Positions 7,611-21,653 of a stretch of 21,812 bases of DNA are shown here, piece after piece. The stretch lies in the UHGV virus genome UHGV-1651579; one strand, given 5' to 3'. This DNA is from a virus. Position 1 is the first letter of the stretch; the number at the start of each line of letters is the position of its first letter. A program made the translations under genes and the position numbers. Below the pieces are notes generated by a model. It did not search any database. It saw nothing but the letters and a program-made list of their open reading frames with translations, and was not told the origin of the DNA.

Positions 7611-7630
7611 TACTGTACATATAAACAGTA
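7611..7630 (-). promoter_or_regulatory. LexA (SOS) box TACTGTACATATAAACAGTA
   Basis: CTGT-N8-ACAG with TA flanks; on minus strand overlaps a TACTGT -10 that is 17 bp from TTGACC (+ coordinates 7648-7653). Confidence 0.65.
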
Positions 7631-7684
7631 TTATTTATTACGGTACTGGTCAACTTTACGGGTTAATTGAATAACAAGATGGTG

Positions 7685-7699
7685 AAAACAATTTGTTTT
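7685..7699 (-). promoter_or_regulatory. P1 box copy j (AAAACAATTTGTTTT)
   Basis: about 30 bp upstream of the -35 of the LexA-box promoter. Confidence 0.5.
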
Positions 7700-7783
7700 G
7701 GCACTTGAGATTTTGCAAATCGCACCTACATGGAAAACGGCAATTTTTGAAACCTGATTTGACCCATGTGAAAGGAGGAAACG

Positions 7784-7987
7784 ATGAAGACCTATGATCG
7801 CAACCGTAACGCTATCACTACCGGCAGCCGAGTGATGGTGGCAACGAATGGTGCAACGGGAGTCATCAAGGAAATCTGCGGAGAAGGCAAATCAGAAGAA
7901 CAATTACGCCGCTCTGACTGCGTGTCTATCGAAGGTGTGGAAGGTCTATTCTGCCCAATGGATTTGGTTCGCCTGGGGTTCTATTAA
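7784..7987 (+). CDS. small hypothetical protein (67 aa)
   Basis: strong RBS GGAGG 6 nt upstream of ATG 7784; one of few plus-strand genes. Confidence 0.55.
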
Positions 7988-8000
7988 TTTCACCATCTAT

Positions 8001-8016
8001 AAAACAAATTGTTTAA
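8001..8016. promoter_or_regulatory. P1 box copy k (AAAACAAATTGTTTAA)
   Basis: abuts hairpin element copy 3. Confidence 0.45.
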
Positions 8017-8036
8017 GGCCACAACTAGTGGCCTTA
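8015..8036. repeat. hairpin element AAGGCCAC-aacta-GTGGCCTT (copy 3)
   Basis: 8-bp stem between convergent genes 7784-7987 and 8043-8741. Confidence 0.5.
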
Positions 8037-8042
8037 TCTGGC

Positions 8043-8741
8043 TTACGGAACAGCGGTAATCAGATCGCAAATGCCTGTTTTAGTTAAATCACTATTCAGC
8101 TTCTGAAAATTGGCATTCAGCATTGCGGTATGTATTCGATTCTCAAGTTCAAAGAAGAGATCGATCTTGCCCTCTTTGGCTGCCACCTTCTTCCAAATAT
8201 TCACCTGGTCATCTGCGATACGACTTGCGCAGGTGAACAAGAACGAACTCCCTCTGGGAAGGGATGTCGTGCTGTAGTATTCACCGTCAACTTCAATATA
8301 CTTAGCTCGGAATGACTCCAGAGTTAGCTTTTTACCGCTCTCAGCCTGCTTTGTGTCTGCCTTGCTTGTCTTTTCCTGAACTTCAGGCTGTTTCTGCACA
8401 GGCTTTGGTGTCTCATTGACCACCGCAGTGCTGGCCGAACCATCCAAACTCTTGAGGCCATTAATTTGGATTAGATAAGCCAACTCCAGAGCCTTATCAC
8501 CAGTGAGTTTTCCACGCATACTTACCCATTGACGCTGAACCGTCTTTAAGGCGTCTGCGTCCCCCGGGTTTGCTTTGAGTGCGTTGGAATAGGTAGAGCT
8601 AAGTTGTTCGTCTAATTTTGACAGGCGTTCGTTATCGCAGATTTTGTGTTCGATTTCTGCCGAAGCCTTTTGGCAGTCAAAGCTGGCTGCAAATACAGCC
8701 GGCGATGCCACCAACAATGATGCCAGTAGGATATTTTTCAT
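8043..8741 (-). CDS. secreted protein with LprI-like (DUF1311) N-terminal domain (about 232 aa)
   Basis: signal peptide MKNILLASLLVASPAVFA; C-x-KA-x-AE-x-IC-x-L-x-LD-x-Y ... QRQW pattern; track start 8747 is GTG, ATG at 8741 has GGAG upstream. Confidence 0.5.
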   Translation of the reverse strand: MKNILLASLLVASPAVFAASFDCQKASAEIEHKICDNERLSKLDEQLSSTYSNALKANPGDADALKTVQRQWVSMRGKLTGDKALELAYLIQINGLKSLDGSASTAVVNETPKPVQKQPEVQEKTSKADTKQAESGKKLTLESFRAKYIEVDGEYYSTTSLPRGSSFLFTCASRIADDQVNIWKKVAAKEGKIDLFFELENRIHTAMLNANFQKLNSDLTKTGICDLITAVP

Positions 8742-8779
8742 ATTCACTCCATAAATATAAAAGCGCCTGACTATAGCAC

Positions 8780-8995
8780 TTAACCAATTGCTTCTCTCAT
8801 CTGATTGTGAAGCTCTTTCAGCCCATCACGTACCGCGTTCATGATACGTTCTAGGTATTGGTATCTGGGGTTTGGCACTGTTGGCCAACCGGCATACCAC
8901 GGATCGTCACCAAACAGACTCAGCAGTTCGTTACCGACACCGAAACAGCAGCAACTTTCTTTTACGTCATCAGCGTTTTCTGCCTCGTCCCACAT
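8780..8995 (-). CDS. hypothetical ORF (71 aa); possibly 3' part of a frameshifted gene
   Basis: no SD before ATG 8995; frame is open upstream to 9082 and overlaps the end of CDS 9042-9281. Confidence 0.3.
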   Translation of the reverse strand: MWDEAENADDVKESCCCFGVGNELLSLFGDDPWYAGWPTVPNPRYQYLERIMNAVRDGLKELHNQMREAIG

Positions 8996-9041
8996 ATTGC
9001 GGGCCTGCTCTGCGTCGATTTCTCTCTCTCCCTGGGCAACT

Positions 9042-9281
9042 TTATGATTTCGGATTTGACGAAAAGCAGGTTTGCGTCGTTGTCATCGTCGACCGTACTG
9101 AAGTGGCACACTGAATTTGGCCGTCTGTAATGGGCAGATCCGGCAACTGTTTAAAAACTTCCATCTGCTCATGGATACGCAGAAACCACCTTGCCAGCTC
9201 CATCTGCTCACCGCGGGTGAGGGGATTATTCAGCGGGGACTTAACAAAAGCGGAGACTCGCTCGACAAGCAGATCATTCAT
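9042..9281 (-). CDS. hypothetical protein (79 aa)
   Basis: ATG at 9281 overlaps stop of upstream 229-aa gene by ATGA; track ORF extends to 9356. Confidence 0.45.
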   Translation of the reverse strand: MNDLLVERVSAFVKSPLNNPLTRGEQMELARWFLRIHEQMEVFKQLPDLPITDGQIQCATSVRSTMTTTQTCFSSNPKS

Positions 9282-9967
9282 GCCGCGCACCTCTCTGCTT
9301 TCTCCTGCAATTCGCGAACGAACTCGACCAAAGAGCCACCTGGCGGGATCTGGCATTCCTCAACCAACTGGAAGTAGATGTCTGCGGCCGCGCGTGTGTT
9401 CGAGCCTTTGTTTAGCTGCTCTTCGCGCAGCGCATCACGTTCATTAATCAAACGGACGCACTCGCCGTTACGCTGATCCACAACGGCCTCAAGTTCAGCG
9501 ATACGTTCGCCAGGAGTCTTACCTTCTTTGCGTTGAATGGTGACGGTAAACTCACCCATTTCAGGAACGTCGTACTCCAGCTCCAGGTAGTTTCTGGCCC
9601 CGCTACGAACAAACTCACCGGCAAACATGGTTGCGAACATCGCAGAGGCCATTTCACCTTTAAACAGAGACTCCAAATCTAACGGAGTGCCGGCAGCCAG
9701 AGCCTCTTTTGCTGTGTCCATTGCGTCCATGAACCGGTCAAACTCATTGGCGCATTTCTCAAGGTCTCTCCACTGCTGGCTCCAACGGCGTGCCAGATGG
9801 TCGATAAAAACCTGCGCCGATTCATCAAAGTTACCTTCGAACGTCACAAGCTCCTTGTCGATTTTGATGGTTCCGGCAGGCGCGCCTGCATTCCCCTGTA
9901 GCACTAAATTAAATGGCAGCTTCGCCTGATCAACGCTGGCGAATGTAATTCTCGATTTTTCGCTCAT
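9278..9967 (-). CDS. hypothetical protein (229 aa)
   Basis: ATG at 9967 with GAGG 7 nt upstream; P2 box 10010-10023 in its promoter. Confidence 0.6.
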   Translation of the reverse strand: MSEKSRITFASVDQAKLPFNLVLQGNAGAPAGTIKIDKELVTFEGNFDESAQVFIDHLARRWSQQWRDLEKCANEFDRFMDAMDTAKEALAAGTPLDLESLFKGEMASAMFATMFAGEFVRSGARNYLELEYDVPEMGEFTVTIQRKEGKTPGERIAELEAVVDQRNGECVRLINERDALREEQLNKGSNTRAAADIYFQLVEECQIPPGGSLVEFVRELQEKAERCAA

Positions 9968-10009
9968 GTGTTTACCTCTGATAAAGTGGCTCTATTCTTA
10001 CATAAATTA

Positions 10010-10023
10010 GGTAAGTATTTACC
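10010..10023 (-). promoter_or_regulatory. P2 box copy 2 (GGTAAGTATTTACC)
   Basis: 14-bp palindrome with one central mismatch, 3 nt after MTase stop and about 40 nt upstream of ATG 9967. Confidence 0.55.
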
Positions 10024-10025
10024 TA

Positions 10026-11711
10026 TCATTTTACACGTTTGAAAACGTATACGCTGACAGTGATTCCGGTGTCTTCAAACTCGTCAGTAAACGACTTCCC
10101 TTTGGCATAAACGTAATTATCCAGCGACATCCAGTTCAGAACTGGCGCATCACCCGGCAATACAGCCACCAGTCGCCCGCCGACTTTAAGATGCTCCAGC
10201 GCGGCCAGCGTATGCTCTCTGTGACGGTCAAGAGAGTAGGACGGGTTCATAACGATTTTGTCGAACTGATAACCTGCGTTGACCTCAGACCACTTCATGA
10301 AGTCGCAGCAGACCGTATTTGTGTACCCCTTGCCAAGCAGGATATCAGCGAAGAGAGGTGCGACTTCTATGCAGGTAACGTCTTCCGGATTGGCGTCGAT
10401 GCAGGCCAGCAGATCTCCGCGCCCGGCTTCAGGCTCCAGCAGCTTCTCACCTTGCTTCAGCTCGATGGCTCTGGCAACGTACTCCGCTATCAAACGCGGG
10501 GTAGGGTAGAACTGGTGTGATTTTGTATCCGGTATTAAGCCGGTGGCCACAATCGTATTGAGCGTATGGCCGATCTCATACGGGAACTGCCAGTGCCTTT
10601 TCTCCTGCACGCCGCCAATGAAGTTCAGTGTGCGCTCAAGCTCTTCCACCTGCGACTTCTGGAGGTTGGAATCAGAGAAGTACCAGACGCCTTTATCTTT
10701 GCTGAATCGCCCGTTGCGCAGCGCGGTACGAACCGGCTCGGAGATCGTCTTCTGGATTAACCCGAACTCTTTTGGTGCCCGTGTTTTGGGTGCAGTACGG
10801 CATGGCGCCGGGATTGCTGCAGGCATACTGTAAGCCAGCACCTCATTCAGCTTCCAGGCTACGTCAGGATGTATTTCAAAGTGAACGTTGCCGTTCTTAA
10901 ACATCTTCACACGCATCAGGTTTCCGTCGACATTCATCCAGTCGCCGGTCTGGCAGTCATTTGCTCGATACGCAGCTGACAGCATCTCGGCCGTGCGGTT
11001 GATGGTGATAAATTCTTTGTGTGCAAAGAAATGCAACATGACGCGCAGGTCGTCTATGTAATCCTCTTTCCGGTAGTTAACGCTGACGCTGTCCCGCCAG
11101 AAATCGGAAATGCAGTCGGCGATGATCAGACGCTCGCTGAAGCCGTTCGTCTTATTGGTCTTGTGAGCAGGACTCAACGCCTTAAACAAGCCATACACGC
11201 GCTCAGAGAGATATTTGTGCCTGTCATTCAGCAAATTAAGCATCGTTGGTATGACCGTTTCTGCTTTGAACTCAGGTACACCAACGAACTCTTTAACCTT
11301 CATTTGATAGCCAGTTCTGTCAGTCTTGATCGTTTCCTGCTTGCCCTCGATAAACTGTTCACGCCACTCGTCGCGGCGGGATGCTGGCATGATCAGCAGA
11401 ACGTTGGTCATATCCGTGACCTTCTTCCAGTATTCAGCCCAGATGTTCTGTTTCACCCATTCCAGGTCGACTTTGTCCAACCAGGCTCTGTTAAAGCGTG
11501 TGCGCTCGTCATCCGGCCGGTGGTTGAGTCGCAGCAGGCGGTTAATCATGCTGTGGCGTTCGTCGCCATAAACGAAGTCGTGAACCTGATGCATGAATGC
11601 GATCTCTTTCTCGCACTCGGCCACAATTTCGTGGATAACGTTCATTTCCTGCCGGTAGTCGATATCAGTGTTTGGAGTGATAGCGTCAATGATGGAAAGG
11701 GCTGTATTCAT
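10026..11711 (-). CDS. orphan gamma-class N6-adenine DNA methyltransferase with about 380-aa N-terminal domain of unknown function (about 561 aa)
   Basis: C-terminal motifs in order FYPTP, LEPEAGRGDL (SAM binding), IVMNPSY (NPPY-type catalytic); track start 11729 is TTG, first ATG at 11711. Confidence 0.75.
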   Translation of the reverse strand: MNTALSIIDAITPNTDIDYRQEMNVIHEIVAECEKEIAFMHQVHDFVYGDERHSMINRLLRLNHRPDDERTRFNRAWLDKVDLEWVKQNIWAEYWKKVTDMTNVLLIMPASRRDEWREQFIEGKQETIKTDRTGYQMKVKEFVGVPEFKAETVIPTMLNLLNDRHKYLSERVYGLFKALSPAHKTNKTNGFSERLIIADCISDFWRDSVSVNYRKEDYIDDLRVMLHFFAHKEFITINRTAEMLSAAYRANDCQTGDWMNVDGNLMRVKMFKNGNVHFEIHPDVAWKLNEVLAYSMPAAIPAPCRTAPKTRAPKEFGLIQKTISEPVRTALRNGRFSKDKGVWYFSDSNLQKSQVEELERTLNFIGGVQEKRHWQFPYEIGHTLNTIVATGLIPDTKSHQFYPTPRLIAEYVARAIELKQGEKLLEPEAGRGDLLACIDANPEDVTCIEVAPLFADILLGKGYTNTVCCDFMKWSEVNAGYQFDKIVMNPSYSLDRHREHTLAALEHLKVGGRLVAVLPGDAPVLNWMSLDNYVYAKGKSFTDEFEDTGITVSVYVFKRVK

Positions 11712-11723
11712 GATTGCACCATT

Positions 11724-11740
11724 AAACAAATTGTTTTTTT
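11724..11740 (-). promoter_or_regulatory. P1 box copy l (AAACAAATTGTTTTTTT) within cassette 11712-11775
   Basis: followed by GTTGGTGTTATTATTTC; 13 nt upstream of ATG 11711. Confidence 0.6.
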
Positions 11741-11882
11741 GTTGGTGTTATTATTTCAAAATTGAGTAGGTAATAAATAAGGATTCACAAGCTGCACAGG
11801 GAGATACTTATAAGTTTATTGAGTTTGCTTAATACTCAACTGACAACTACACGTAAGATATTTGTCGCCTCCTTATTGAGTA

Positions 11883-12302
11883 ATGATGATGAAGAAAATT
11901 ATATTGCTGGGAATTGCCAGCGCTTTTGCTGTGAATGTCTACGCCAACAACACAGAGCAAGGTTTTAAAGAGACCGGCAGGGCAACCAGCTATGTTAAAT
12001 GCGCTCTTTATGCCGACATATCGAATATCTACACAGACAAATCCAGTGCAGTGCCTGCTGAAAATGCAAAACAGTTCAGAATTCTCGCGCTGAAGCACTG
12101 GAGAAAGGCAAATGAATTGCTTGGCAACGTTAAAACCGGAGATGATGAAATCGTCGACTTTGCCGTCTATCTATCATCTCAGGAATCAGTGGCCTGGGAC
12201 GCTCACCCTGAAATGAACAATTCGAATAATGACAGAGGCAATCCGGCAACTGCGGCATACATGAGCGAAAATTGCGGCTTATTGTTAGACGCCGCAAAGT
12301 AG
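11883..12302 (+). CDS. secreted hypothetical protein (139 aa)
   Basis: N-terminal signal peptide MMMKKIILLGIASAFAVNVYA; AT-rich by eye; followed by hairpin GGGGGC-ttt-GCCCC. Confidence 0.5.
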   Translation: MMMKKIILLGIASAFAVNVYANNTEQGFKETGRATSYVKCALYADISNIYTDKSSAVPAENAKQFRILALKHWRKANELLGNVKTGDDEIVDFAVYLSSQESVAWDAHPEMNNSNNDRGNPATAAYMSENCGLLLDAAK

Positions 12303-12327
12303 AGTAGGGGGCTTTGCCCCATATATA

Positions 12328-12906
12328 TTAATGATGTAAAGGCTGCATCTTTTGCGGCTGCGGCTGTTTGTTCAGGTCGTGGCGATGGGTCAGCTCGCGC
12401 ATCATGTCTTCAAGACGGCTCTTGGTGTCGTCAAGCTGGTCGGCCATTGCCCCCAACAGCTGGCGAAGGGCCATCGGATCGTCGCTGTTCAGCTCAGGCA
12501 TTTTGAACCCAGCCTGGGAAGACATCAGTTTGAAAGCGGCCAGCAACATCGCCAGAGAAGACTTCAGCCCGGCGATTTCACGATCTTTGCTGGCGTTGGT
12601 TTCATCTGCCTTGACTGAATCCGGTGAGCACTTCGGCTTGCTTACCATTTCCAGAGTTGCCTTAAGTTTGTCGGCGCGTTCTTTCTCTTCCAGATACGCT
12701 TCGCCGAAATGACGCGCCAGCATCACAATTTCAATCGGATCATCAATCATGCTTGAGAACTTGAGAACGCTGAAAAGGCGGTCAATAGGGGAGGCGTCGT
12801 CTTCGTGACCAACCACAAGACCCATGATCTCAACCAGTTCGGCCGCACCAACTTTTTTAATCACGCTTTCAACTTTGGCATTAGTTTTTTTGCATTTTTC
12901 ACACAT
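12328..12906 (-). CDS. hypothetical protein (192 aa)
   Basis: ATG at 12906 with AAGGAAG upstream; own cassette with P1 box. Confidence 0.55.
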   Translation of the reverse strand: MCEKCKKTNAKVESVIKKVGAAELVEIMGLVVGHEDDASPIDRLFSVLKFSSMIDDPIEIVMLARHFGEAYLEEKERADKLKATLEMVSKPKCSPDSVKADETNASKDREIAGLKSSLAMLLAAFKLMSSQAGFKMPELNSDDPMALRQLLGAMADQLDDTKSRLEDMMRELTHRHDLNKQPQPQKMQPLHH

Positions 12907-12926
12907 GCGCTCTTCCTTATTCTTTT

Positions 12927-12940
12927 AAACAAGTTGTTTT
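12927..12940 (-). promoter_or_regulatory. P1 box copy m (AAACAAGTTGTTTT)
   Basis: about 20 nt upstream of ATG 12906. Confidence 0.6.
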
Positions 12941-13114
12941 CTTAATTGTTTAATTGTCTCAAATTCTATGATGATGTGAAGAGTTGCATTAAGGCGAAAA
13001 GACACGCAAAAGGAAAAATCAGGCATACCAGACATTTATTTAAAGTGGCATTCATAGCAGAATGTTCTCATTGCCGAAGTTCTATTCAGACGTCAGTCCC
13101 TAAGAGAGAGCAAA

Positions 13115-14074
13115 ATGTTTGGTAATCTTTTCAAAACGGAAGAAACTAAGGCCCGGGAGGGCTTGGAGTCTCATTATCAGAAAGTCATGAGCTTCGTTGC
13201 TGAAAATGATCTACATGAAGCATGGGAAAAAACACGCAATATCATTTTTCGAAATATGGAAGTTAGAAGCTACATCACGCAAAACGGCGCGTTCGATCGT
13301 AACGATTTTTACTATAAGTCAGCCAAAGAGAAGCTTATTCAAAGCGCCTTCACTTCATACCTACTCATAAAAGTTTTACCTCAGTTCTATGAAATGCATC
13401 TCACCACTTTGAAAAGAAAAGAAAAAACACTCACAACACAGGATGAATACGGGGTCTGGAACTTTGACAAGTGGTTTGATGAAGTAGACTACTTTTATGA
13501 CAAGGTAGTAAAAGAGAAAGTTTACGATTGGATCGAAGAGAACACAGGCCGGCTCAACAACCTTTGGTTGGCAGAGTCGGAGGACAAGAATGCCTGGGGG
13601 CGGCCAGTTTACTTTAAATTCCAGTTGCCTGAACAATTTGATCGCTGCGCAATAAATCACATTATGACGGTGGTAGACAATACACCAGAACCTGAATTAC
13701 CTGAGTACACTTCGCTACTGACCGGGCACGAATATGAGCATTTTGTCGCTGGGGAGTTTATGAAGTATGGATCCGACACCCAAGTAACTAAGGGCAGCGG
13801 CGATCACGGTCTGGATATCCTTGTAACCTATAGAGAAGTTCGAATGGCTGTTCAGTGCAAACACTACCAGTCTAAAGTAGGCAACAAAGCTATTCAGGAA
13901 GCATTTTCCGCGAAACAGTTCTACGATTGCTCCCTCGCAATAGTAGTCAGCAACAGCGAGTTTACCCCTCACGCCAGACAAGCAGCCAAAAAACTGGACG
14001 TTTATCTGTATCACCATGAAGATATACACTTAATAATAGACGCCATTAATAATTGGCTGGATGCGCCGGAGTGA
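13115..14074 (+). CDS. two-domain protein: unknown N-terminal domain (about residues 1-195) + C-terminal Mrr-type PD-(D/E)xK restriction-endonuclease domain (319 aa)
   Basis: C-terminal block GHEYEHFVAGEF...KGSGDHGLDIL...AVQCKHY...IVVSNSEFTPHA matches Mrr catalytic-domain pattern (GxGDxGxD and VQCK); plus strand and AT-rich, unlike neighbours. Confidence 0.7.
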   Translation: MFGNLFKTEETKAREGLESHYQKVMSFVAENDLHEAWEKTRNIIFRNMEVRSYITQNGAFDRNDFYYKSAKEKLIQSAFTSYLLIKVLPQFYEMHLTTLKRKEKTLTTQDEYGVWNFDKWFDEVDYFYDKVVKEKVYDWIEENTGRLNNLWLAESEDKNAWGRPVYFKFQLPEQFDRCAINHIMTVVDNTPEPELPEYTSLLTGHEYEHFVAGEFMKYGSDTQVTKGSGDHGLDILVTYREVRMAVQCKHYQSKVGNKAIQEAFSAKQFYDCSLAIVVSNSEFTPHARQAAKKLDVYLYHHEDIHLIIDAINNWLDAPE

Positions 14075-14109
14075 AGATTGAGGGGCTAATGCCCCCCCCT
14101 ATTCGTCGG

Positions 14110-14298
14110 TTAAAAGAACCCGAGGATGCCGCCCACTGGAACAATGAAAACTCCCACGACACGCGCAAGTGTCACTCCGGCATGAGACTGGAGATCGCCA
14201 TCGTTCACAAGTTTCACCAGATTCATGATCCAGCCGTTAAACAAAAAAACGGTAAAGCCAACAATCATCAAGGTGAATTTCTGGAAGTTCCATTTCAT
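14110..14298 (-). CDS. small hydrophobic membrane protein (62 aa)
   Basis: ATG overlaps stop of upstream ORF by ATGA; strongly hydrophobic. Confidence 0.4.
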   Translation of the reverse strand: MKWNFQKFTLMIVGFTVFLFNGWIMNLVKLVNDGDLQSHAGVTLARVVGVFIVPVGGILGFF

Positions 14299-14865: not shown

Positions 14866-14941
14866 CGTTCCATCCTGGAACCGTACCTAACCGGTACTTC
14901 GTCATCCTGACGATTTATAAGATACCTGATTTATTATAGTA

Positions 14942-14955
14942 GGTAAATACTTACT
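14942..14955 (-). promoter_or_regulatory. P2 box copy 3 (GGTAAATACTTACT)
   Basis: overlaps stop codon of RNase HI gene; TATAAT-like hexamer immediately downstream on minus strand. Confidence 0.5.
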
Positions 14956-15559
14956 TATACTTTTGTGACAAAAACCCAATGTCATGCTTGTGAGGCATAT
15001 CAGCTGCGGAATAGGCGGCGATCTTCGCCAGACGGTCACACATTTCGTTCTCGCGATGACCTGCATGGCCTTTAACCCACTTCCAGCGGACATTATGACG
15101 ACTGGCGGCCACGTCGAGACGTTTCCAGAGATCCACGTTTTTGACTGGCTTCTTCTCAGACGTGATCCATCCGTTACGCTTCCAGCCTTTCATCCAGAGC
15201 GTCATGCCGTTTTTAAGATACTGGCTGTCGGAATGCAGGATCACGTTGCAGGGGTACTTCAGACGCTCCAGCGCAATCAGGGCGCCCATCATCTCCATCC
15301 GATTGTTGGTCGTGCTGTGGAAGCCCTCAGAAAGCTCGCGCTCTTCGCCTCGATACTGGAGAACGATACCGTAACCGCCCGGCCCGCCCGGATTTTTGAG
15401 GCAGGAGCCATCACTGAATACTTTTACGGTTTTGAGCTGGGGATTGAACTCGACTACGGGTGTGTTGAAATTGGTACAGGAATGCTGGTGGGTTTGGCAT
15501 CTGGCTTTAGACTTCGTGCGGCAGCCAGTGCGTTGCCGGACTGGGTTCTTGGTCGTCAT
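14951..15559 (-). CDS. rnhA: RNase HI with about 45-aa basic Cys/His-containing N-terminal extension (202 aa)
   Basis: body aligns with E. coli RnhA ([43 protein letters not shown]); all four catalytic acidic residues present; ATG 15559 with GGAG 5 nt upstream. Confidence 0.85.
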
Positions 15560-15626: not shown

Positions 15627-16136
15627 AATATTAAAAATTTTTTAGAAAAGAAAAATTACTTCCCAGAACAGGTTTTAATAAAACCTGAACTGAACGAACG
15701 AAGTGAGTGAAGTTCACCTCGAACGAAGTGAGAGGTTGTCTTTTCAAGTAATACTCTCCCAGTGAGGTGAGTACAAAATTTCCTCACCAACCTGGTCGTT
15801 TCATAACCTGAAAAGTTATGACCTAAGTCTACTGCCAGCTTAGGCTTGGGAAGTTATGGATGACAGCACCCCAGAACCGAGATCTTCCCACACTTTATGA
15901 AGGGGAGTACTGGATTCAACCTCTCGAAACACTCCAGACTCGACAATCATAAAGTGACCCTTCTCTCTGCCCACTTTGGTTCCCCCTTCCCCAACCCCTA
16001 AACGGTGCCGGTTCTACGCTGGTAGTGAGCTTTTTTAAACCTGACGCCAGTGACGCTATCCCCCACCCATCAGGTCGAGCTGCCGAAAGTATCCGGAAGC
16101 GGATAGATTGTATCACTGGTTAGTGGCGTTTTGAAT

Positions 16137-16150
16137 GGTAAGTACTTACC
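16137..16150 (-). promoter_or_regulatory. P2 box copy 4 (GGTAAGTACTTACC, perfect palindrome)
   Basis: just 3' of CDS 16153-16383; faces about 575 bp without a credible ORF before rnhA. Confidence 0.55.
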
Positions 16151-16152
16151 TA

Positions 16153-16383
16153 TTATATTGATTGATTAATTTCTCGCCCATGAAGCTGGACGTTCAGGGC
16201 AAACACCTCATTGATGAGTTCCCCTAACAGCTGTTCCACCAGCTCTTTGTGCTCGCCTGAATGAAGACATCTGAGCGACCATTCGTAGAGACTGAAAGCC
16301 TTATCGCGATCTTTCATCATGTCGCGCACTGTGGCCAGAAAATCGCTCTCAACGAGCGCTACGACGTTCGTCGGGTATACCAT
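16153..16383 (-). CDS. hypothetical protein (76 aa)
   Basis: ATG 16383 with AAGGA 8 nt upstream. Confidence 0.5.
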   Translation of the reverse strand: MVYPTNVVALVESDFLATVRDMMKDRDKAFSLYEWSLRCLHSGEHKELVEQLLGELINEVFALNVQLHGREINQSI

Positions 16384-16585: not shown

Positions 16586-16972
16586 TTACGCTGCCTTTTT
16601 ACGTGGTCTCTTCTTCCTGACAACATTGGCAGGATCATAACCACCCAGCTTTTTCATCACCGCCAGCGGTATCTTGCTGATGGTGTGCCCAGCTTCCTGA
16701 CAGTAGCCACGGAAGATAAGCAACATGCTGCCACCAGGGTTGATGTTCACCTCCACCAGCCCAAGTTCAACATCCGGCTCAACGAACGCCACGCGGCCGC
16801 CAGACAAGATGACGGTTTCGTTGGCGCATTCAGCCGCACGCTCGTACCACTGCGTATCGAGGGATTGTGGTATCAGCATGACCGTCGTCACTCCACGCGC
16901 CTGCTCGCGAATGGCTGCGTCTATCCAGGGGGTGATTTTGGAGTAGGGCGGGTTGTCGCAAAAGCATCCCAA
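16586..16972 (-). pseudogene. 5'-truncated phage-type Dam-like N6-adenine methyltransferase fragment (C-terminal about 128 aa)
   Basis: begins at a TTG directly before CDNPPYS; upstream extension of the frame is not methyltransferase-like; AT-rich junction 16980-17160. Confidence 0.5.
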
Positions 16973-17137
16973 CGATGATAATGGGGATCTGATATTACCC
17001 CGTATGGCAATGTCATGTGTCTTTTCCTTTGTGGTTATTTTGATACAAATTCTAAGCGTGCATAAGAGGCGTACAACCCATACAAAACGGCATACAAAAG
17101 AATATAAAGGTACATGATAATGATAAAAAAATAAGTA

Positions 17138-17151
17138 AGTAAATACTTATC
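17138..17151 (-). promoter_or_regulatory. P2 box copy 5 (AGTAAATACTTATC)
   Basis: about 165 nt upstream of the truncated Dam fragment. Confidence 0.4.
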
Positions 17152-18057: not shown

Positions 18058-18253
18058 AATTCTTGTTCAAATAATTTTGTCCGGGGCAACGATAACGGAT
18101 AAGGCGCACCGGAGTTTGCAAATGCCTGTTTACTTATTCACTTTATTCACAGGCCCGATCCAATATTTAGATCCCCAGAGAGATCCTACAGAAGATCAAA
18201 AGAGATCCCCGATCGTCTCCAGCGCTTGCGGTTACTGGCTTGAGAAGGGGTTA

Positions 18254-18360
18254 CTATCCACTATAGGGAGCAAAATAACCACTGTAGAGAGCATAATAAC
18301 CGCTATGAAGAGCAAAACAACCTCTCTGGAGAGTAGTCGGTATCCACTGTAGTGAGTAGG
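18254..18360 (+). repeat. RepFIB-type iterons, upstream cluster 1 (5 units)
   Basis: about 21-bp units (T/A)A(T/A)CCACTGTAG(T/A)GAG; block 18115-18360 duplicated at 18485-18770. Confidence 0.8.
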
Positions 18361-18647
18361 AGACAATGTTTTAACTGGATAACTCCGAGCCTGTTTTTCT
18401 GCGGCAGATGGCTGATATTCTTGGAAATATTGTAAATTTTGCGTTGCGGCGTGTTTATTTCGATCACACATTATCCCCAGAAGGGGAGTGATGCCTGATT
18501 TTGTAATTATCTGATTTTTATACACAGGCCCGATCCAGTAATTCAGATCCCTGTTAGAACCAAAGAGAACCACAAAGACCCAAAGAGATCCCCGGCCCCT
18601 GCAAACCGTTGTGCCACATGGCTTTAGAGGTTATCGATATCCACTAT

Positions 18648-18765
18648 AGTGAGAATAACAACCACTATAGAGAGTAAATCAACCACTATGGAGAGTAGAA
18701 AAACCGCTGTAGGCGGTAGGATAACCACTGTGATGGGTGCTACTATCCACTGTAATCAGTAAAGG
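18648..18765 (+). repeat. RepFIB-type iterons, upstream cluster 2 (6 units)
   Basis: same core as cluster 1. Confidence 0.8.
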
Positions 18766-18799
18766 CACCCAAGCCGTCGAATAAAAAGAGACATTTGGA

Positions 18800-19855
18800 A
18801 TGAGCGTAAACGACAATAAAAACATTGCGATAAGCGAAGCATTTTCCGAAACAGACAAAAAGACCGGCGAAGTTGTTACGTTAGTTCCTAACACCAACAA
18901 CACAGTTCAGCCTGTTGCTCTGATGCGTCTTGGTCTCTTCGTTCCGACGCTGAAATCGACATCCAGGGGTAGAAAGGGGCAAATGGTCTCTATGGACGCC
19001 TCCGCTGAACTCAAACAGCTGTCTCTGGCCAAAGCCGAAGGGTACGAGGATATAAGGATTGCTGGTCTTCGTCTTGATATGGATAACGATTTCAAAACAT
19101 GGGTGGGCATCATCCACGCGTTCGCCAAGCACAAGGTTGTTGGTGACACCGTCACGTTGCCGTTCGTCGAGTTCGTCAGACTTTGTGGCATACCAACAGC
19201 CAGATCGTCCGCGAAGTTACGTAAGCGCCTGGACAGCTCTCTAAGTCGTATCGCCACAAACACCATCTCATTCCGCAGCAAAGGCTCTGAAGAGTATTAC
19301 GTTACGCACCTTGTGCAGACGGCAAAGTACAGTACCAAGAATGACACGGTCGAACTGAAGGCCGATCCTAAGATTTTCGAACTTTACCAGTTCGACAAAA
19401 AGGTGCTTTTGCAACTTCGGGCCATCAACGAACTCTCCAGAAAAGAATCCGCGCAGGCGCTCTACACCTTCATTGAAAGTTTGCCACCAGACCCGGCGCC
19501 AATCTCATTGGCTCGCTTACGCGCCAGACTTAACTTAACCAGCCGCACCATTACCCAGAATGCGACAGTCAGGAAGGCGATGGAGCAGCTGCGAGAGATC
19601 GGCTATCTCGATTACACTGAAGTGAAACGCGGCAGCTCGGTCTACTTCGTCATCCACTATAGACGGCCGAAGTTACGTTCGGCACTGCCGCCATCTATGG
19701 CTACGCCTGAAGAGCCAGAAGATATTTTGCCAGGTGATGATCCGGAGGACATTATCGATGTTGCCCCTGAAGAAAAAGACGGGGAAATGGTCATGTTGAG
19801 CAAGGAAGAACTAGCGATTCTCGAAGAGCTGCGCAAGGCAAAGGCTCGCAAATAG
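18800..19855 (+). CDS. repA: RepA replication initiator, RepFIB family (351 aa)
   Basis: recalled similarity to RepFIB RepA ([67 protein letters not shown]); iterons on both sides. Confidence 0.85.
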
Positions 19856-19879
19856 CCCAACCACTGTAGAGAGTAAAAA

Positions 19880-19909
19880 GGCTCACTATCTACTGTAGTG
19901 AGCCTTTTT
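19880..19909 (+). terminator. rho-independent terminator of repA (GGCTCACTA-N7-TAGTGAGCC + T5)
   Basis: 9-bp stem followed by TTTTT, 25 nt after repA stop; stem is itself iteron-like. Confidence 0.7.
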
Positions 19910-20351
19910 GTTTATCGGAAATGCAATATCCACTGTAGTGAGTAAAAGAAACCGAAGAATAACCACTGTAGGCAGTGCGCACAAATCGCGAAGTAAATGT
20001 TAGTGGTTGCAAACATAGATAAAACAAGGGCTGAGAGGTTAGCGGTCACTGGGTATCTCTGTTAAGTCTACTCTCTACAGCGGTTATCGTCGCTCTCCTC
20101 ATTGTTGACTATCCACTGTGAAGAGCAGAATTGGCTGACTTGACCTCTATCCACTGTAGTGAGTGGATATCCGTTTAAAACAGCGAAGATTTACTCTCCA
20201 TAGTGGATATCCGCTGGAGGGGGCATTCCATCACTCTCTATAGTGGTTGTTTGTAGTCAGTGAACGCCTGTTTACTCACTACAGTGTATAGCGACCCCGA
20301 TAATCACCAATTTACTCACTGCAGTGGATAGTTGATATCGTGGCAGGGGGG

Positions 20352-20493
20352 TTGCTCACTACAGTGGTTGGGGTGCATACCCGAATGGTGTTTTACTCAC
20401 TACAGTGGTTGGGGTGCATACCCGAATGGTGTTCTACTCACTACAGTGGTTGGGGTGCATACCTGAAGGGTGTTCTACTCGCTACAGTGGTTA
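20352..20493. repeat. 41-bp tandem repeat, 3.5 units (TTACTCACTACAGTGGTTGGGGTGCATACCCGAATGGTGTT)
   Basis: period 41 bp measured between CTCAC starts at 20355, 20396, 20437, 20478; each unit contains one iteron core. Confidence 0.8.
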
Positions 20494-20546
20494 TGAGCCG
20501 GATTCACACGCGGTGAGCTGGCTACTCACCGCAGTGGATAGTGTTA

Positions 20547-21585: not shown

Positions 21586-21601
21586 GTGTTTTTTCCTTGT
21601 T

Positions 21602-21615
21602 GGTAAGTACTTATC
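21602..21615 (-). promoter_or_regulatory. P2 box copy 6 (GGTAAGTACTTATC)
   Basis: about 17 nt upstream of ATG 21585, immediately after a TAAGAT -10-like hexamer; followed by CAACAAGGAAAAAACAC resembling the P1 cassette leader. Confidence 0.55.
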
Positions 21616-21653
21616 TATCTTAATGGGCGCTATAAGGCGCACAATCATTGTGT

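What the first reader, a model, noticed from the sequence alone, without database searches (positions are those of the whole stretch)
11776..14100. Compositionally distinct three-gene patch interrupting the cassette-driven array
Between the methyltransferase cassette (ends about 11775) and the convergent gene end at 14110 lie a plus-strand secreted protein (11883-12302), a minus-strand cassette-driven 192-aa gene (12328-12906) and the plus-strand Mrr-type nuclease gene (13115-14074). The two plus-strand genes are AT-rich by eye and lack P1 or P2 boxes, while the minus-strand gene between them keeps its cassette. This mosaic suggests separate insertion events into the array.
Basis: inference. 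Interest (0 to 1): 0.5.

Follow-up and report, generated by a model that had tools for sequence, protein, structure and literature searches.

The report
Two swappable accessory-gene slots in phage-plasmid
The patch is two rare add-on genes (a stand-alone Mrr-type DNA-cutting enzyme and a small exported protein) in two long-established swap sites on either side of a conserved early gene of an SSU5-type phage-plasmid, which is ordinary phage mosaicism with one untested candidate defence gene.

Summary
The window is an SSU5-family phage-plasmid (Salmonella phage SSU5 about 93% identical; E. coli IncFIB plasmids 98-99.7%).

The minus-strand genes carry a repeated promoter/palindrome cassette (AAACAAnTTGTTT, 12 hits against 0.08 expected). 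The two plus-strand genes lack it.

"Compositionally distinct" is weak:
- The Mrr gene has 43.0% GC against 47.3% for the window (6th percentile).
- The 139-aa gene is unremarkable (32nd percentile).
- Codon usage and dinucleotide signature are not outliers.

Comparison with relatives does show mosaicism:
- Of 736 plasmids with the 192-aa backbone gene, 10 carry the 139-aa gene and 8 the Mrr gene, in all combinations.
- The Mrr module takes the place of SSU5's Rha antirepressor.
- Allele divergence breaks sharply at the slot edges.

These are not recent insertions. Every homologue of the 139-aa gene (down to 57% identity) sits in the same slot. One diverged contig, L016, has the whole + - + patch (67/56/67% aa).

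Best reading: two old recombination-exchanged accessory ("moron") slots. One holds an intact PD-(D/E)XK nuclease that also rides on other mobile elements and is probably a defence gene (inferred). The other holds an orphan periplasmic helical protein.

The parts
10026..11729 (-). DUF4942 / N6-methyltransferase gene. It is the conserved left flank (SSU5_095 homologue). The likely start is the ATG at 11711.
   Evidence: Pfam DUF4942 1.3e-20 and phrog_6263 'DNA methyltransferase' 8e-295. 97-98% aa identity in relatives whether or not they carry Mrr.
11712..11800 (-). Promoter/operator cassette of the methyltransferase gene, with the palindrome AAACAAATTGTTT at 11724-11736.
   Evidence: It aligns with SSU5 and pYLPI6a up to about 11753-11800.
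11753..12358 (.). Slot-1 variable module: the 139-aa gene with its upstream region, the hairpin, and a divergent 3' end of the 192-aa gene. It replaces 85-118 bp in SSU5 and pYLPI6a.
   Evidence: BLAST breakpoints at 11760/11792 and 12359/12361; alignment A1.
11819..11858 (+). Conserved block upstream of the 139-aa gene (TTGnGnTnGCTTAATA ... TAnnAT at 11853-11858). Possibly its own promoter.
   Evidence: Invariant columns among four diverged alleles. The consensus scan finds no strong sigma-70 site here, so this is inferred only.
11883..12302 (+). 139-aa exported protein. Signal peptide is about aa 1-21 (11883-11945). The mature part is a helical bundle with two Cys (C40 invariant; C130 conserved wherever the C-terminus is present).
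   Evidence: ORF. phrog_7437, unknown function, 2.7e-13. Only 8 protein clusters, mostly on 100-110 kb contigs (two are on short contigs). Alignment. AlphaFold pLDDT 85.8. dN/dS 0.10-0.14.
12305..12321 (.). GC-rich hairpin (GGGGCTTTGCCCC) between the convergent 139-aa and 192-aa genes. It is homologous to the SSU5_094 terminator but has lost its T-tract.
12328..12906 (-). 192-aa conserved early gene of unknown function (SSU5_094 homologue), lying between the two slots.
   Evidence: phrog_5508 3e-99. 34 homologue clusters, nearly all on roughly 100-115 kb contigs, none with a functional annotation (one fragment matches Pfam Dam). Found in 736 plasmid records. No PDB, Pfam or NCBIfam hit.
12907..12990 (-). 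Promoter/operator cassette of the 192-aa gene: palindrome AAACAAGTTGTTT at 12927-12939, and TTCACA-16-GACAAT with an upstream TG at 12980-12953.
   Evidence: It is the rightmost cassette in the window.
12943..14111 (.). Slot-2 variable module: the promoter half of the 192-aa cassette, the Mrr gene with its upstream region, and the hairpin. It replaces the 997-bp Rha/Ant antirepressor unit of SSU5 and an 80-bp 'empty' allele in pEC21Z137.
   Evidence: Breakpoints at 12942/12943 and 14111/14112.
13058..13068 (+). CAGAAT / AGAATGTTCT motif about 50 nt upstream of the Mrr start codon. Candidate -10 element and/or operator that travels with the gene.
   Evidence: The AGAAT core plus one flanking T is invariant in all six contexts aligned, including a chromosomal island and an IncFII-type contig.
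13115..14074 (+). 319-aa stand-alone nuclease. It has an all-helical N-terminal domain (aa 1-200) of unknown type and a C-terminal Mrr_cat PD-(D/E)XK domain (aa 202-303, nt 13718-14023).
14082..14099 (.). GC-rich hairpin (GGGGC-TAAT-GCCCC...) between the convergent Mrr and 62-aa genes. It is an IS421 insertion point in some relatives.
   Evidence: Sequence. Matches of CP088502, AP027538 and AP027577 end at 14094, next to IS421.
14110..14298 (-). 62-aa conserved gene (SSU5_092 homologue), the right flank.
   Evidence: phrog_6006 8.6e-20. The alignment with SSU5 resumes exactly at its stop codon.

Best explanation
The patch lies in the early-gene array of an SSU5-family phage-plasmid. It consists of a conserved early gene (192 aa, unknown function, with its own promoter/palindrome cassette) flanked by two long-standing accessory-gene slots.

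Each slot holds a self-contained, oppositely oriented transcription unit of the 'moron' type. The unit has its own conserved upstream element, an ORF, and a GC-rich hairpin shared with the convergent neighbour. It lacks the array's cassette.

Shown:
- The modules are present or absent independently among relatives.
- Their edges lie inside conserved flanking sequence.
- Allele divergence jumps at the slot edges.
- The same genes occupy the same slots in relatives whose backbone proteins are only 52-67% identical.

Together these indicate old residents that are gained, lost and swapped by homologous recombination between co-infecting relatives. They are not transposon-like insertions.

Slot 2 alternates between an Mrr-type nuclease (+), a Rha/Ant antirepressor (-), TciA/TciB (TerB/DUF3927) genes (-), or nothing. 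Slot 1 holds the 139-aa gene (+), other small genes (-), or nothing.

Inferred function:
- The 319-aa protein is an active stand-alone PD-(D/E)XK DNA nuclease. Its helical N-terminal domain provides target sensing. It probably serves the lysogen as a single-gene defence or superinfection-exclusion nuclease.
- The 139-aa protein is exported to the periplasm. It most plausibly acts at the envelope, for example in superinfection exclusion or lysogenic conversion.
- Lacking the cassette, both genes probably escape the regulation that keeps the early array silent in the plasmid-prophage state.
For: Identity of the element:
- SSU5 about 93% identical; roughly 100-kb IncFIB 'non-mobilizable' plasmids 98-99.7%.

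Independent assortment and rarity:
-. Among the 138 of 5426 complete E. coli genomes that carry the region, 3 have both genes, 3 have Mrr only and 3 have the 139-aa gene only.

Alternative occupants of the slots:
- Rha/Ant in SSU5. Empty in pEC21Z137. TciA/TciB in Cyrano and pJN2-26. Mrr plus DUF3927/TerB in L006, L016 and L022.

Same slot in diverged relatives:
-. In L016 the methyltransferase is 90% identical, the 139-aa homologue 67%, the 192-aa homologue 56%, Mrr 67%, the 62-aa homologue 52% and the 166-aa homologue 52%.

Recombinational mosaic:
- In L018 the 139-aa allele has dS 0.51 against 0.10-0.16 in the flanks. In L017 it is saturated (pS 0.87) against 0.13-0.18.
- No target-site duplication or terminal inverted repeats.

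Purifying selection:
- dN/dS 0.10-0.14, and pN about 0.2 against pS about 0.9.

Nuclease:

Stand-alone cargo:
- Homologues sit in an E. coli integrase/DUF5906/resolvase island, on an IncFII repA/TraX contig, beside a pyocin locus and beside another resolvase, with no shared neighbour.
- A conserved upstream motif travels with the gene.
- The methyltransferase allele does not co-vary with Mrr.
- The Mrr_cat domain matches nuclease modules of defence proteins in PADLOC (ZorD 1.5e-15, candidate PDC-S02 8e-11).
- Mrr_cat fusions are known defence effectors (bioRxiv 10.1101/2024.07.02.601686; PMC9122126).

Silence of the array in lysogeny:
- In the SSU5-like Cyrano lysogen, none of the cassette-driven homologues (CYRAN_82-97) is listed among lysogeny-expressed genes (PMC9928086).
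Against: - Function is not shown. PADLOC matches cover only the nuclease domain, and NCBIfam gives nothing.
- No convincing sigma-70 promoter was found for either plus-strand gene. Expression in the lysogen is therefore inference, and Cyrano lacks both genes.
- The 139-aa protein has no informative sequence or fold relative.
- Deep co-residence could equally mean that the genes are ancestral and were lost many times, rather than exchanged. The data show both patterns and do not give the direction.
- Mrr-family genes are consistently GC-poor (0.376-0.43). That fits a foreign origin at some earlier time.
Confidence: 0.7

Rival explanations
1. One reading: two recent, independent insertions of foreign, compositionally distinct DNA into this plasmid's cassette array.
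For: - Both genes are absent from SSU5 and from about 99% of related plasmids.
- The Mrr unit is somewhat GC-poor, at the 3rd-6th percentile.
- All ten 139-aa-positive plasmid records are 97-100% identical across the module, and seven of the Mrr-positive ones are at least 99.9% identical. This is compatible with a recent spread of one allele.
Against: - The same genes sit in the same slots in relatives with 52-67% aa identity across the whole neighbourhood.
- Codon usage and dinucleotide signature are not distinct.
- There are no insertion scars.
- The module boundaries lie inside homologous flanks.
Confidence: 0.12
2. The Mrr-type gene is a free-standing homing endonuclease. It cuts the 'empty' or Rha-type allele of slot 2 in co-infecting relatives and is copied in by recombinational repair. 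That would explain its fixed position, patchy distribution and reversed orientation.
For: - It has a fixed intergenic site, and presence/absence is polymorphic with recombinational edges.
Against: - Close homologues (50-70% aa) lie in unrelated contexts with no SSU5 flanks: a chromosomal island, an IncFII-type contig and a pyocin locus.
- The flanking 62-aa allele is not linked to Mrr presence. It is 97% identical in Rha-bearing pLAO18 but 73-76% in other Mrr-less elements.
- The gene is very rare for an element that drives its own spread.
Confidence: 0.08
3. The nuclease serves the phage's own lytic programme, for example host-DNA degradation or processing of replication or recombination intermediates, rather than defence. 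The 139-aa protein is a lysis or envelope accessory factor.
For: - The gene lies in a region rich in DNA-metabolism genes: methyltransferases, RNase H, exonuclease and DHFR in relatives.
Against: - About 99% of family members do without it, and the slot can be empty.
- Homologues occur on non-phage elements and chromosomes.
- The gene lacks the early-gene cassette and is transcribed against the array.
Confidence: 0.1

Closest known systems
Phage 'morons' and accessory-gene hotspots of temperate phages and satellites (for example the P2/P4 hotspots, PMC9122126; lysogeny-expressed morons of the SSU5-like phage-plasmid Cyrano, PMC9928086)
   Same: - Self-contained genes sit between conserved phage genes and are absent from close relatives.
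- They are bounded by hairpin terminators.
- Different cargo occupies the same position in different relatives.
- The cargo includes a nuclease of a type used in defence.
   Different: - Expression in the lysogen and any phenotype are untested here.
- The two slots are tiny (one gene each) and flank a single conserved gene.
- The same cargo has stayed in place across deep divergence, rather than turning over freely.
E. coli Mrr (EcoKMrr) and other Type IV modification-dependent restriction enzymes carrying Mrr_cat
   Same: - C-terminal Mrr_cat PD-(D/E)XK domain with the D...QxK catalytic signature.
- Stand-alone gene without a cognate methyltransferase.
   Different: - The N-terminal 200 residues are all-helical and match no Pfam family. 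No Mrr_N winged-helix domain is found.
- The element itself encodes DNA methyltransferases and lives in Dam+/Dcm+ hosts, so any modification dependence must differ.
- Specificity is unknown.
Salmonella phage SSU5 locus SSU5_095 to SSU5_091 (methylase, hypothetical 094, Rha/Ant antirepressor 093, 092, 091)
   Same: The backbone genes and their order are the same, at 76-98% aa identity, with the same promoter/palindrome cassette.
   Different: - SSU5 has only 85 bp where the window has the 139-aa module.
- SSU5 has a cassette-driven minus-strand Rha/Ant gene where the window has the plus-strand Mrr module.
Single-protein defence nucleases that combine a variable sensor domain with a PD-(D/E)XK or Mrr_cat effector (for example Epona and Divona of Vibrio integrons, bioRxiv 10.1101/2024.07.02.601686; the PADLOC candidate PDC-S02)
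   Same: - One-gene architecture with an N-terminal non-catalytic domain and a C-terminal Mrr_cat domain.
- Carried on mobile elements.
   Different: - The N-terminal domain is different.
- The PADLOC match is confined to the nuclease domain.
- No phenotype has been demonstrated.

Membership tests
SSU5-family phage-plasmid | Nucleotide and gene-order similarity to phage SSU5 and to the roughly 100-110 kb IncFIB 'non-mobilizable' plasmids related to it | tested here: met
   About 93% nt identity to SSU5 over the shared parts. 514 plasmid records match, 502 of them typed non-mobilizable. Gene order is the same.
Mrr_cat (PF04471) PD-(D/E)XK nuclease superfamily | Profile match above the curated threshold | tested here: met
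   76.6 bits against a cut-off of 21, E 2.1e-21, residues 202-303.
Mrr_cat (PF04471) PD-(D/E)XK nuclease superfamily | Catalytic E ... D ... (E/Q)xK residues present and conserved | tested here: met
   E208, D234, Q247 and K249 are invariant in the alignment of 11 homologues.
Mrr_cat (PF04471) PD-(D/E)XK nuclease superfamily | Restriction-endonuclease-like alpha/beta core fold | tested here: met
EcoKMrr-type Type IV restriction enzyme | N-terminal winged-helix DNA-binding domain (Mrr_N) | tested here: not met
   No Pfam family matches residues 1-200 at E <= 0.01 (only two sub-threshold chance-level matches, E 0.04-0.06). The model there is all-helical with one small hairpin.
EcoKMrr-type Type IV restriction enzyme | Cleavage dependent on DNA modification | not testable with these tools
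   This needs biochemistry or in vivo restriction assays.
Type II restriction-modification system | A cognate methyltransferase that is linked to the nuclease and co-varies with it | tested here: not met
   - No methyltransferase is adjacent to the nuclease gene.
- The DUF4942 methyltransferase 1.4 kb away is a core gene, 97-98% identical in Mrr+ and Mrr- relatives.
- Homologues elsewhere share no neighbour.
Phage moron (autonomous accessory transcription unit) | Located between conserved genes and absent from close relatives | tested here: met
Phage moron (autonomous accessory transcription unit) | Own promoter and terminator | tested here: inconclusive
   - Hairpins lie at 12305-12321 and 14082-14099.
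- Conserved upstream blocks travel with each gene.
- No strong sigma-70 consensus site was found.
Phage moron (autonomous accessory transcription unit) | Expressed from the prophage during lysogeny | not testable with these tools
   The only indirect evidence is that cassette-driven homologues are not among the lysogeny-expressed genes of Cyrano (PMC9928086). Cyrano lacks both plus-strand genes.
Transposon, IS or integron-cassette insertion | Target-site duplication, terminal inverted repeats, attC, or a recombinase gene | tested here: not met
   No flanking repeats beyond chance-size matches. No transposase or integrase lies in the patch.
Free-standing homing endonuclease | Confined to one genomic site, whose empty allele is its target | tested here: inconclusive
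   The site is fixed within SSU5-like elements. However, homologues of 50-70% identity lie in unrelated contexts. Cleavage was not tested.
Known anti-phage defence system (PADLOC-DB v2) | Full-length match to a model of a defined system | tested here: not met
   Only the nuclease domain matches (ZorD C-terminus 1.5e-15, candidate PDC-S02 8e-11). The 139-aa protein has no hit.

The most novel reading that the evidence does not exclude
The 319-aa protein founds an undescribed single-gene anti-phage or anti-plasmid defence family: a helical sensor domain with a conserved KRK...L...DDYG...W..E.DYF core, joined to an Mrr_cat nuclease. SSU5-family phage-plasmids keep it as an alternative allele to their Rha antirepressor at a fixed hotspot. 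The family-specific 139-aa periplasmic protein in the neighbouring slot is a new superinfection-exclusion factor. Both would be expressed in the lysogen because they lack the array's promoter/operator cassette.
Probability: 0.3. Interest if true: 0.45.

Novelty: new member of a known kind. Interest (0 to 1): 0.25.

Why it matters
SSU5-type phage-plasmids are common in clinical Enterobacteriaceae: 138 of 5426 complete E. coli genomes carry this region. They are known carriers of accessory traits.

- Two exact, recombination-exchanged cargo slots next to a conserved gene give a simple landmark for mining accessory and defence genes across this family.
- The work also points to one concrete, cheaply testable candidate defence nuclease and one orphan exported protein.

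The finding itself is ordinary phage mosaicism. It does not open a new question.

Tried and rejected
Composition as evidence of foreign origin was rejected. GC percentiles, dinucleotide signature and synonymous codon usage with a multinomial null do not single out the two genes.

A transposon-like insertion was rejected. No target-site duplication or terminal inverted repeats were found.

A Type II R-M pair with the neighbouring methyltransferase was rejected. The methyltransferase is a core gene and does not co-vary with Mrr.

Function of the 139-aa protein led nowhere:
- No Pfam, NCBIfam, PADLOC or PDB sequence hit.
- The BFVD Foldseek search gives nothing with E <= 0.001; the best hit has E 0.33.
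- The afdb50 library was not available.

Function of the 192-aa protein also led nowhere. There is no PDB, Pfam or NCBIfam hit, and homologues are all hypothetical proteins of SSU5-like elements.

The N-terminal domain of the nuclease:
- An exhaustive HMMER search found only 17 relatives. Of the 10 more distant hits scanned against Pfam, 9 couple the conserved core (about residues 70-150) to Mrr_cat.
- No named domain was identified.

Hidden RNA genes in the patch were excluded: no Rfam match at E <= 1 and no tRNA.

Literature:
- No description of these slots or of the cassette was found.
- One possibly relevant 2026 preprint on an SSU5-like phage-plasmid could not be opened.
Full report
**What the window is.** The region matches Salmonella phage SSU5 at about 93% identity over the shared parts. 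It matches 514 plasmid records, 502 of them typed 'non-mobilizable', mostly about 100-115 kb IncFIB plasmids of Escherichia, Klebsiella, Enterobacter and Salmonella. It is therefore part of an SSU5-family phage-plasmid, not of an ordinary plasmid. In SSU5 the homologous stretch reads, all on one strand: DNA methylase (SSU5_095), hypothetical 094, Rha/Ant antirepressor 093, 092, 091, RNase H.

**Check of the observation.**
- The three ORFs exist exactly as given.
- The 319-aa product has a C-terminal Mrr_cat domain (76.6 bits against a cut-off of 21).
- The 139-aa product begins with a canonical Sec signal, read from the sequence.
- The 'cassette' is real. The palindrome AAACAAnTTGTTT occurs 12 times against 0.08 expected.
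- Seen from the minus strand, each copy lies between a sigma-70-like promoter (TGnGATAAT, then AACACCAACAAGA) and the Shine-Dalgarno sequence and ATG of a minus-strand gene.
- One copy precedes the methyltransferase gene (11724-11736). One precedes the 192-aa gene (12927-12939; promoter-like site 12980-12953).
- Neither plus-strand gene has a cassette. With 3 mismatches allowed, the only match near either gene is one chance-level hit that overlaps the Mrr start codon.

**Composition.** The claimed distinctness does not hold up.
- The Mrr CDS has 43.0% GC (6th percentile of same-size windows). The 139-aa CDS has 45.2% (32nd percentile). The window mean is 47.3%.
- Several cassette-driven genes are equally low.
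- The dinucleotide signature is ordinary.
- Synonymous codon usage does not deviate significantly (p = 0.33 and p = 0.06). The 'resident' 192-aa gene deviates more (p = 0.01).

**What comparison shows: slot 1.**
- Relative to SSU5, window 11793-12358 replaces 85 bp. pYLPI6a shows the same 'empty' allele.
- The 139-aa module starts inside the upstream part of the methyltransferase promoter.
- It keeps a homologue of the SSU5_094 terminator hairpin (12305-12321) but without its T-tract.
- It ends inside the last 10 codons of the 192-aa gene.

**What comparison shows: slot 2.**
- Window 12943-14111 replaces the 997-bp Rha/Ant unit.
- The Mrr module starts between the palindrome and the -10 element of the 192-aa cassette. 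It ends exactly at the stop codon of the 62-aa gene.
- The SSU5 Rha/Ant gene has its own AAACAATTTGTTT box. In SSU5 the cassette array therefore extends one gene further.
- No target-site duplication or terminal inverted repeat flanks either module.

**Distribution.** The 192-aa backbone gene is detectable in 736 plasmid records. The 139-aa module is in 10. The Mrr module is in 7, plus one diverged Cronobacter plasmid. All four combinations occur:

| 139-aa gene | Slot 2 | Examples |
|---|---|---|
| present | Mrr | window, CP088502, AP027538, AP027577 |
| absent | Mrr | pYLPI6a and three others |
| present | Rha | pLAO18 |
| present | empty (80 bp) | pEC21Z137 |
| absent | Rha | SSU5 and most others |

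Other relatives put different genes in the same slots. Cyrano has two small minus-strand genes in slot 1. Cyrano and pJN2-26 have TciA/TciB (TerB/DUF3927) in slot 2.

**The arrangement is old.**
- Every homologue of the 139-aa protein found among 5.8 billion clusters (8 clusters, down to 57% identity) lies in the same slot and orientation in an SSU5-like contig, wherever I looked.
- Mrr homologues of 65-67% aa identity lie in slot 2, divergent from the 190-aa gene, in the Cronobacter plasmid pCsaCS931a (L006) and in contigs L016 and L022.
- L016 has the complete + - + patch. Identities to the window are: methyltransferase 90%, 139-aa homologue 67%, 192-aa homologue 56%, Mrr 67%, 62-aa homologue 52%, 166-aa homologue 52%. 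The two 'inserts' are no more diverged than their neighbours.

**There is also allelic exchange.** In L018 the 139-aa allele has dS 0.51 while the flanks have 0.10-0.16. In L017 it is saturated (pS 0.87) while the flanks have 0.13-0.18. Both genes are under purifying selection: dN/dS is 0.10-0.14 where measurable, and pN is about 0.2 against pS about 0.9 for Mrr. The simplest account is two long-standing accessory slots whose contents are shuffled, lost and regained by homologous recombination between related phage-plasmids.

**The nuclease.**
- E208, D234, Q247 and K249 (the E...D...QxK signature of Mrr-type PD-(D/E)XK enzymes) are invariant in 11 homologues.
- Residues 1-200 form an all-helical domain that matches no Pfam family at E <= 0.01.
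- An exhaustive HMMER search with this domain found only 17 relatives. Of the 10 more distant hits scanned against Pfam, 9 couple the conserved core (about residues 70-150, L.TLKRKE.TL...DDYG..NFDKW..E.DYF) to an Mrr_cat domain.
- Outside SSU5-like elements, homologues sit alone in unrelated mobile contexts: an E. coli island with integrase, DUF5906 and resolvase genes (70% identity); an IncFII repA/TraX contig (69%); next to a pyocin/tailocin locus (50%); and next to another resolvase (37%).
- A short upstream motif travels with the gene in all six contexts aligned (CAGAAT within the near-palindrome AGAATATTCT; window 13058-13068).
- There is no cognate methyltransferase, and the nearby DUF4942 methyltransferase is core and does not co-vary.
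- PADLOC matches only the nuclease domain. NCBIfam and PDB sequence searches give nothing specific.
- I infer an active, autonomous nuclease, most likely a defence or superinfection-exclusion gene. This is not shown.
- Mrr-positive SSU5-like relatives carry adenine-methyltransferase genes (DUF4942 in L016; Dam-type in L006 and L022). The window has its DUF4942 methyltransferase and an ORF with a DNPPY motif at 16586-16972. A simple 'cuts any methylated DNA' specificity is therefore unlikely.

**The 139-aa protein.**
- It has a signal peptide, two Cys (C40 invariant; C130 conserved wherever the C-terminus is present) and a confident helical-bundle model (pLDDT 85.8).
- It is an orphan found only in SSU5-like elements in every context examined. 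Its function is open. An envelope-level role in the lysogen is my guess.

**Regulation (inference).**
- The cassette places a palindrome just downstream of a promoter, which is the usual position of an operator.
- In the SSU5-like Cyrano lysogen of E. coli LF82, published transcriptomes list none of the cassette-driven homologues (CYRAN_82-97) among lysogeny-expressed genes (PMC9928086).
- Genes that lack the cassette and face the other way would escape that control.
- The consensus scan found no strong promoter for either plus-strand gene, so this remains to be tested.

**Rivals.**
- A homing endonuclease would explain the fixed site and patchiness. It fits poorly with homologues in unrelated contexts and with the gene's rarity.
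- A lytic-cycle DNA-processing role fits poorly with dispensability and with carriage on non-phage elements.

**Verdict.** The anatomy is real and correctly read. The composition claim is weak. This is ordinary phage mosaicism with one reasonable, untested defence candidate. I rate it of low to moderate interest.

Noticed in passing
window 1486-12952 (copies at 1486, 1971, 3619, 4110, 4488, 5896, 7257, 11724, 12927; further palindromes at 2721, 5690, 7308, 7686, 8002): The repeated unit is a full promoter/leader cassette on the minus strand: a -35-like CTTTGnnGCC, TGnGATAAT, AACACCAACAAGA, the palindrome AAACAAnTTGTTT, then the Shine-Dalgarno sequence and ATG. All copies lie left of 12952 and none lies to the right. 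It looks like a promoter plus operator for a dimeric regulator. I found no description of it in the literature searched.
   Followed up: partly
window 3200-3228, 10009-10033, 14941-14965, 16136-16160, 17118-17146, 21601-21625: A second palindrome family, TAGGTAAGTACTTACCTA, lies in the gaps between minus-strand genes that lack the first cassette. It often overlaps the stop codon of the upstream gene. It may be a second operator or promoter type.
   Followed up: no
window 13058-13068; L016, L006, L022, L007 and L021 about 50 nt upstream of the Mrr homologues: A CAGAAT / AGAATATTCT near-palindrome is conserved upstream of every Mrr homologue aligned, including those in a chromosomal island and on an IncFII-type contig. 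The gene appears to carry its own regulatory element between hosts.
   Followed up: partly
window 14094 (hairpin 14082-14099); CP088502, NZ_AP027538, NZ_AP027577, NZ_JBRNIK010000002: In the only public E. coli records that carry both plus-strand genes, similarity stops at 14094, next to an IS421 (annotated there in CP088502). Beyond it CP088502 continues with structural (baseplate) genes. These are large cointegrate or rearranged plasmids (158-240 kb). The window is the intact form, which is not present in the collections searched.
   Followed up: partly
window 5000-5900: A non-coding-looking stretch has extreme strand skew (GC skew up to +0.41, AT skew down to -0.45). It contains repeated units of the type TTGCCTG...GGTTGGT (repeat families D9, D12 and D19).
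   Followed up: no
window 18253-20541: Dense iteron-like repeats (TATCCACTGTAGTGAG and its reverse complement, 21- and 41-bp spacing) lie on both sides of a plus-strand 351-aa ORF (18800-19855). This is presumably the plasmid replication initiator and origin of the phage-plasmid.
   Followed up: no
L007-L011 (E. coli chromosomes), gene at 6001-6969: The 70%-identical Mrr homologue sits in an island with an integrase, a DUF5906 protein and a serine resolvase. The island is found at two or more different chromosomal neighbourhoods, so it is a mobile island carrying the same stand-alone nuclease.
   Followed up: partly
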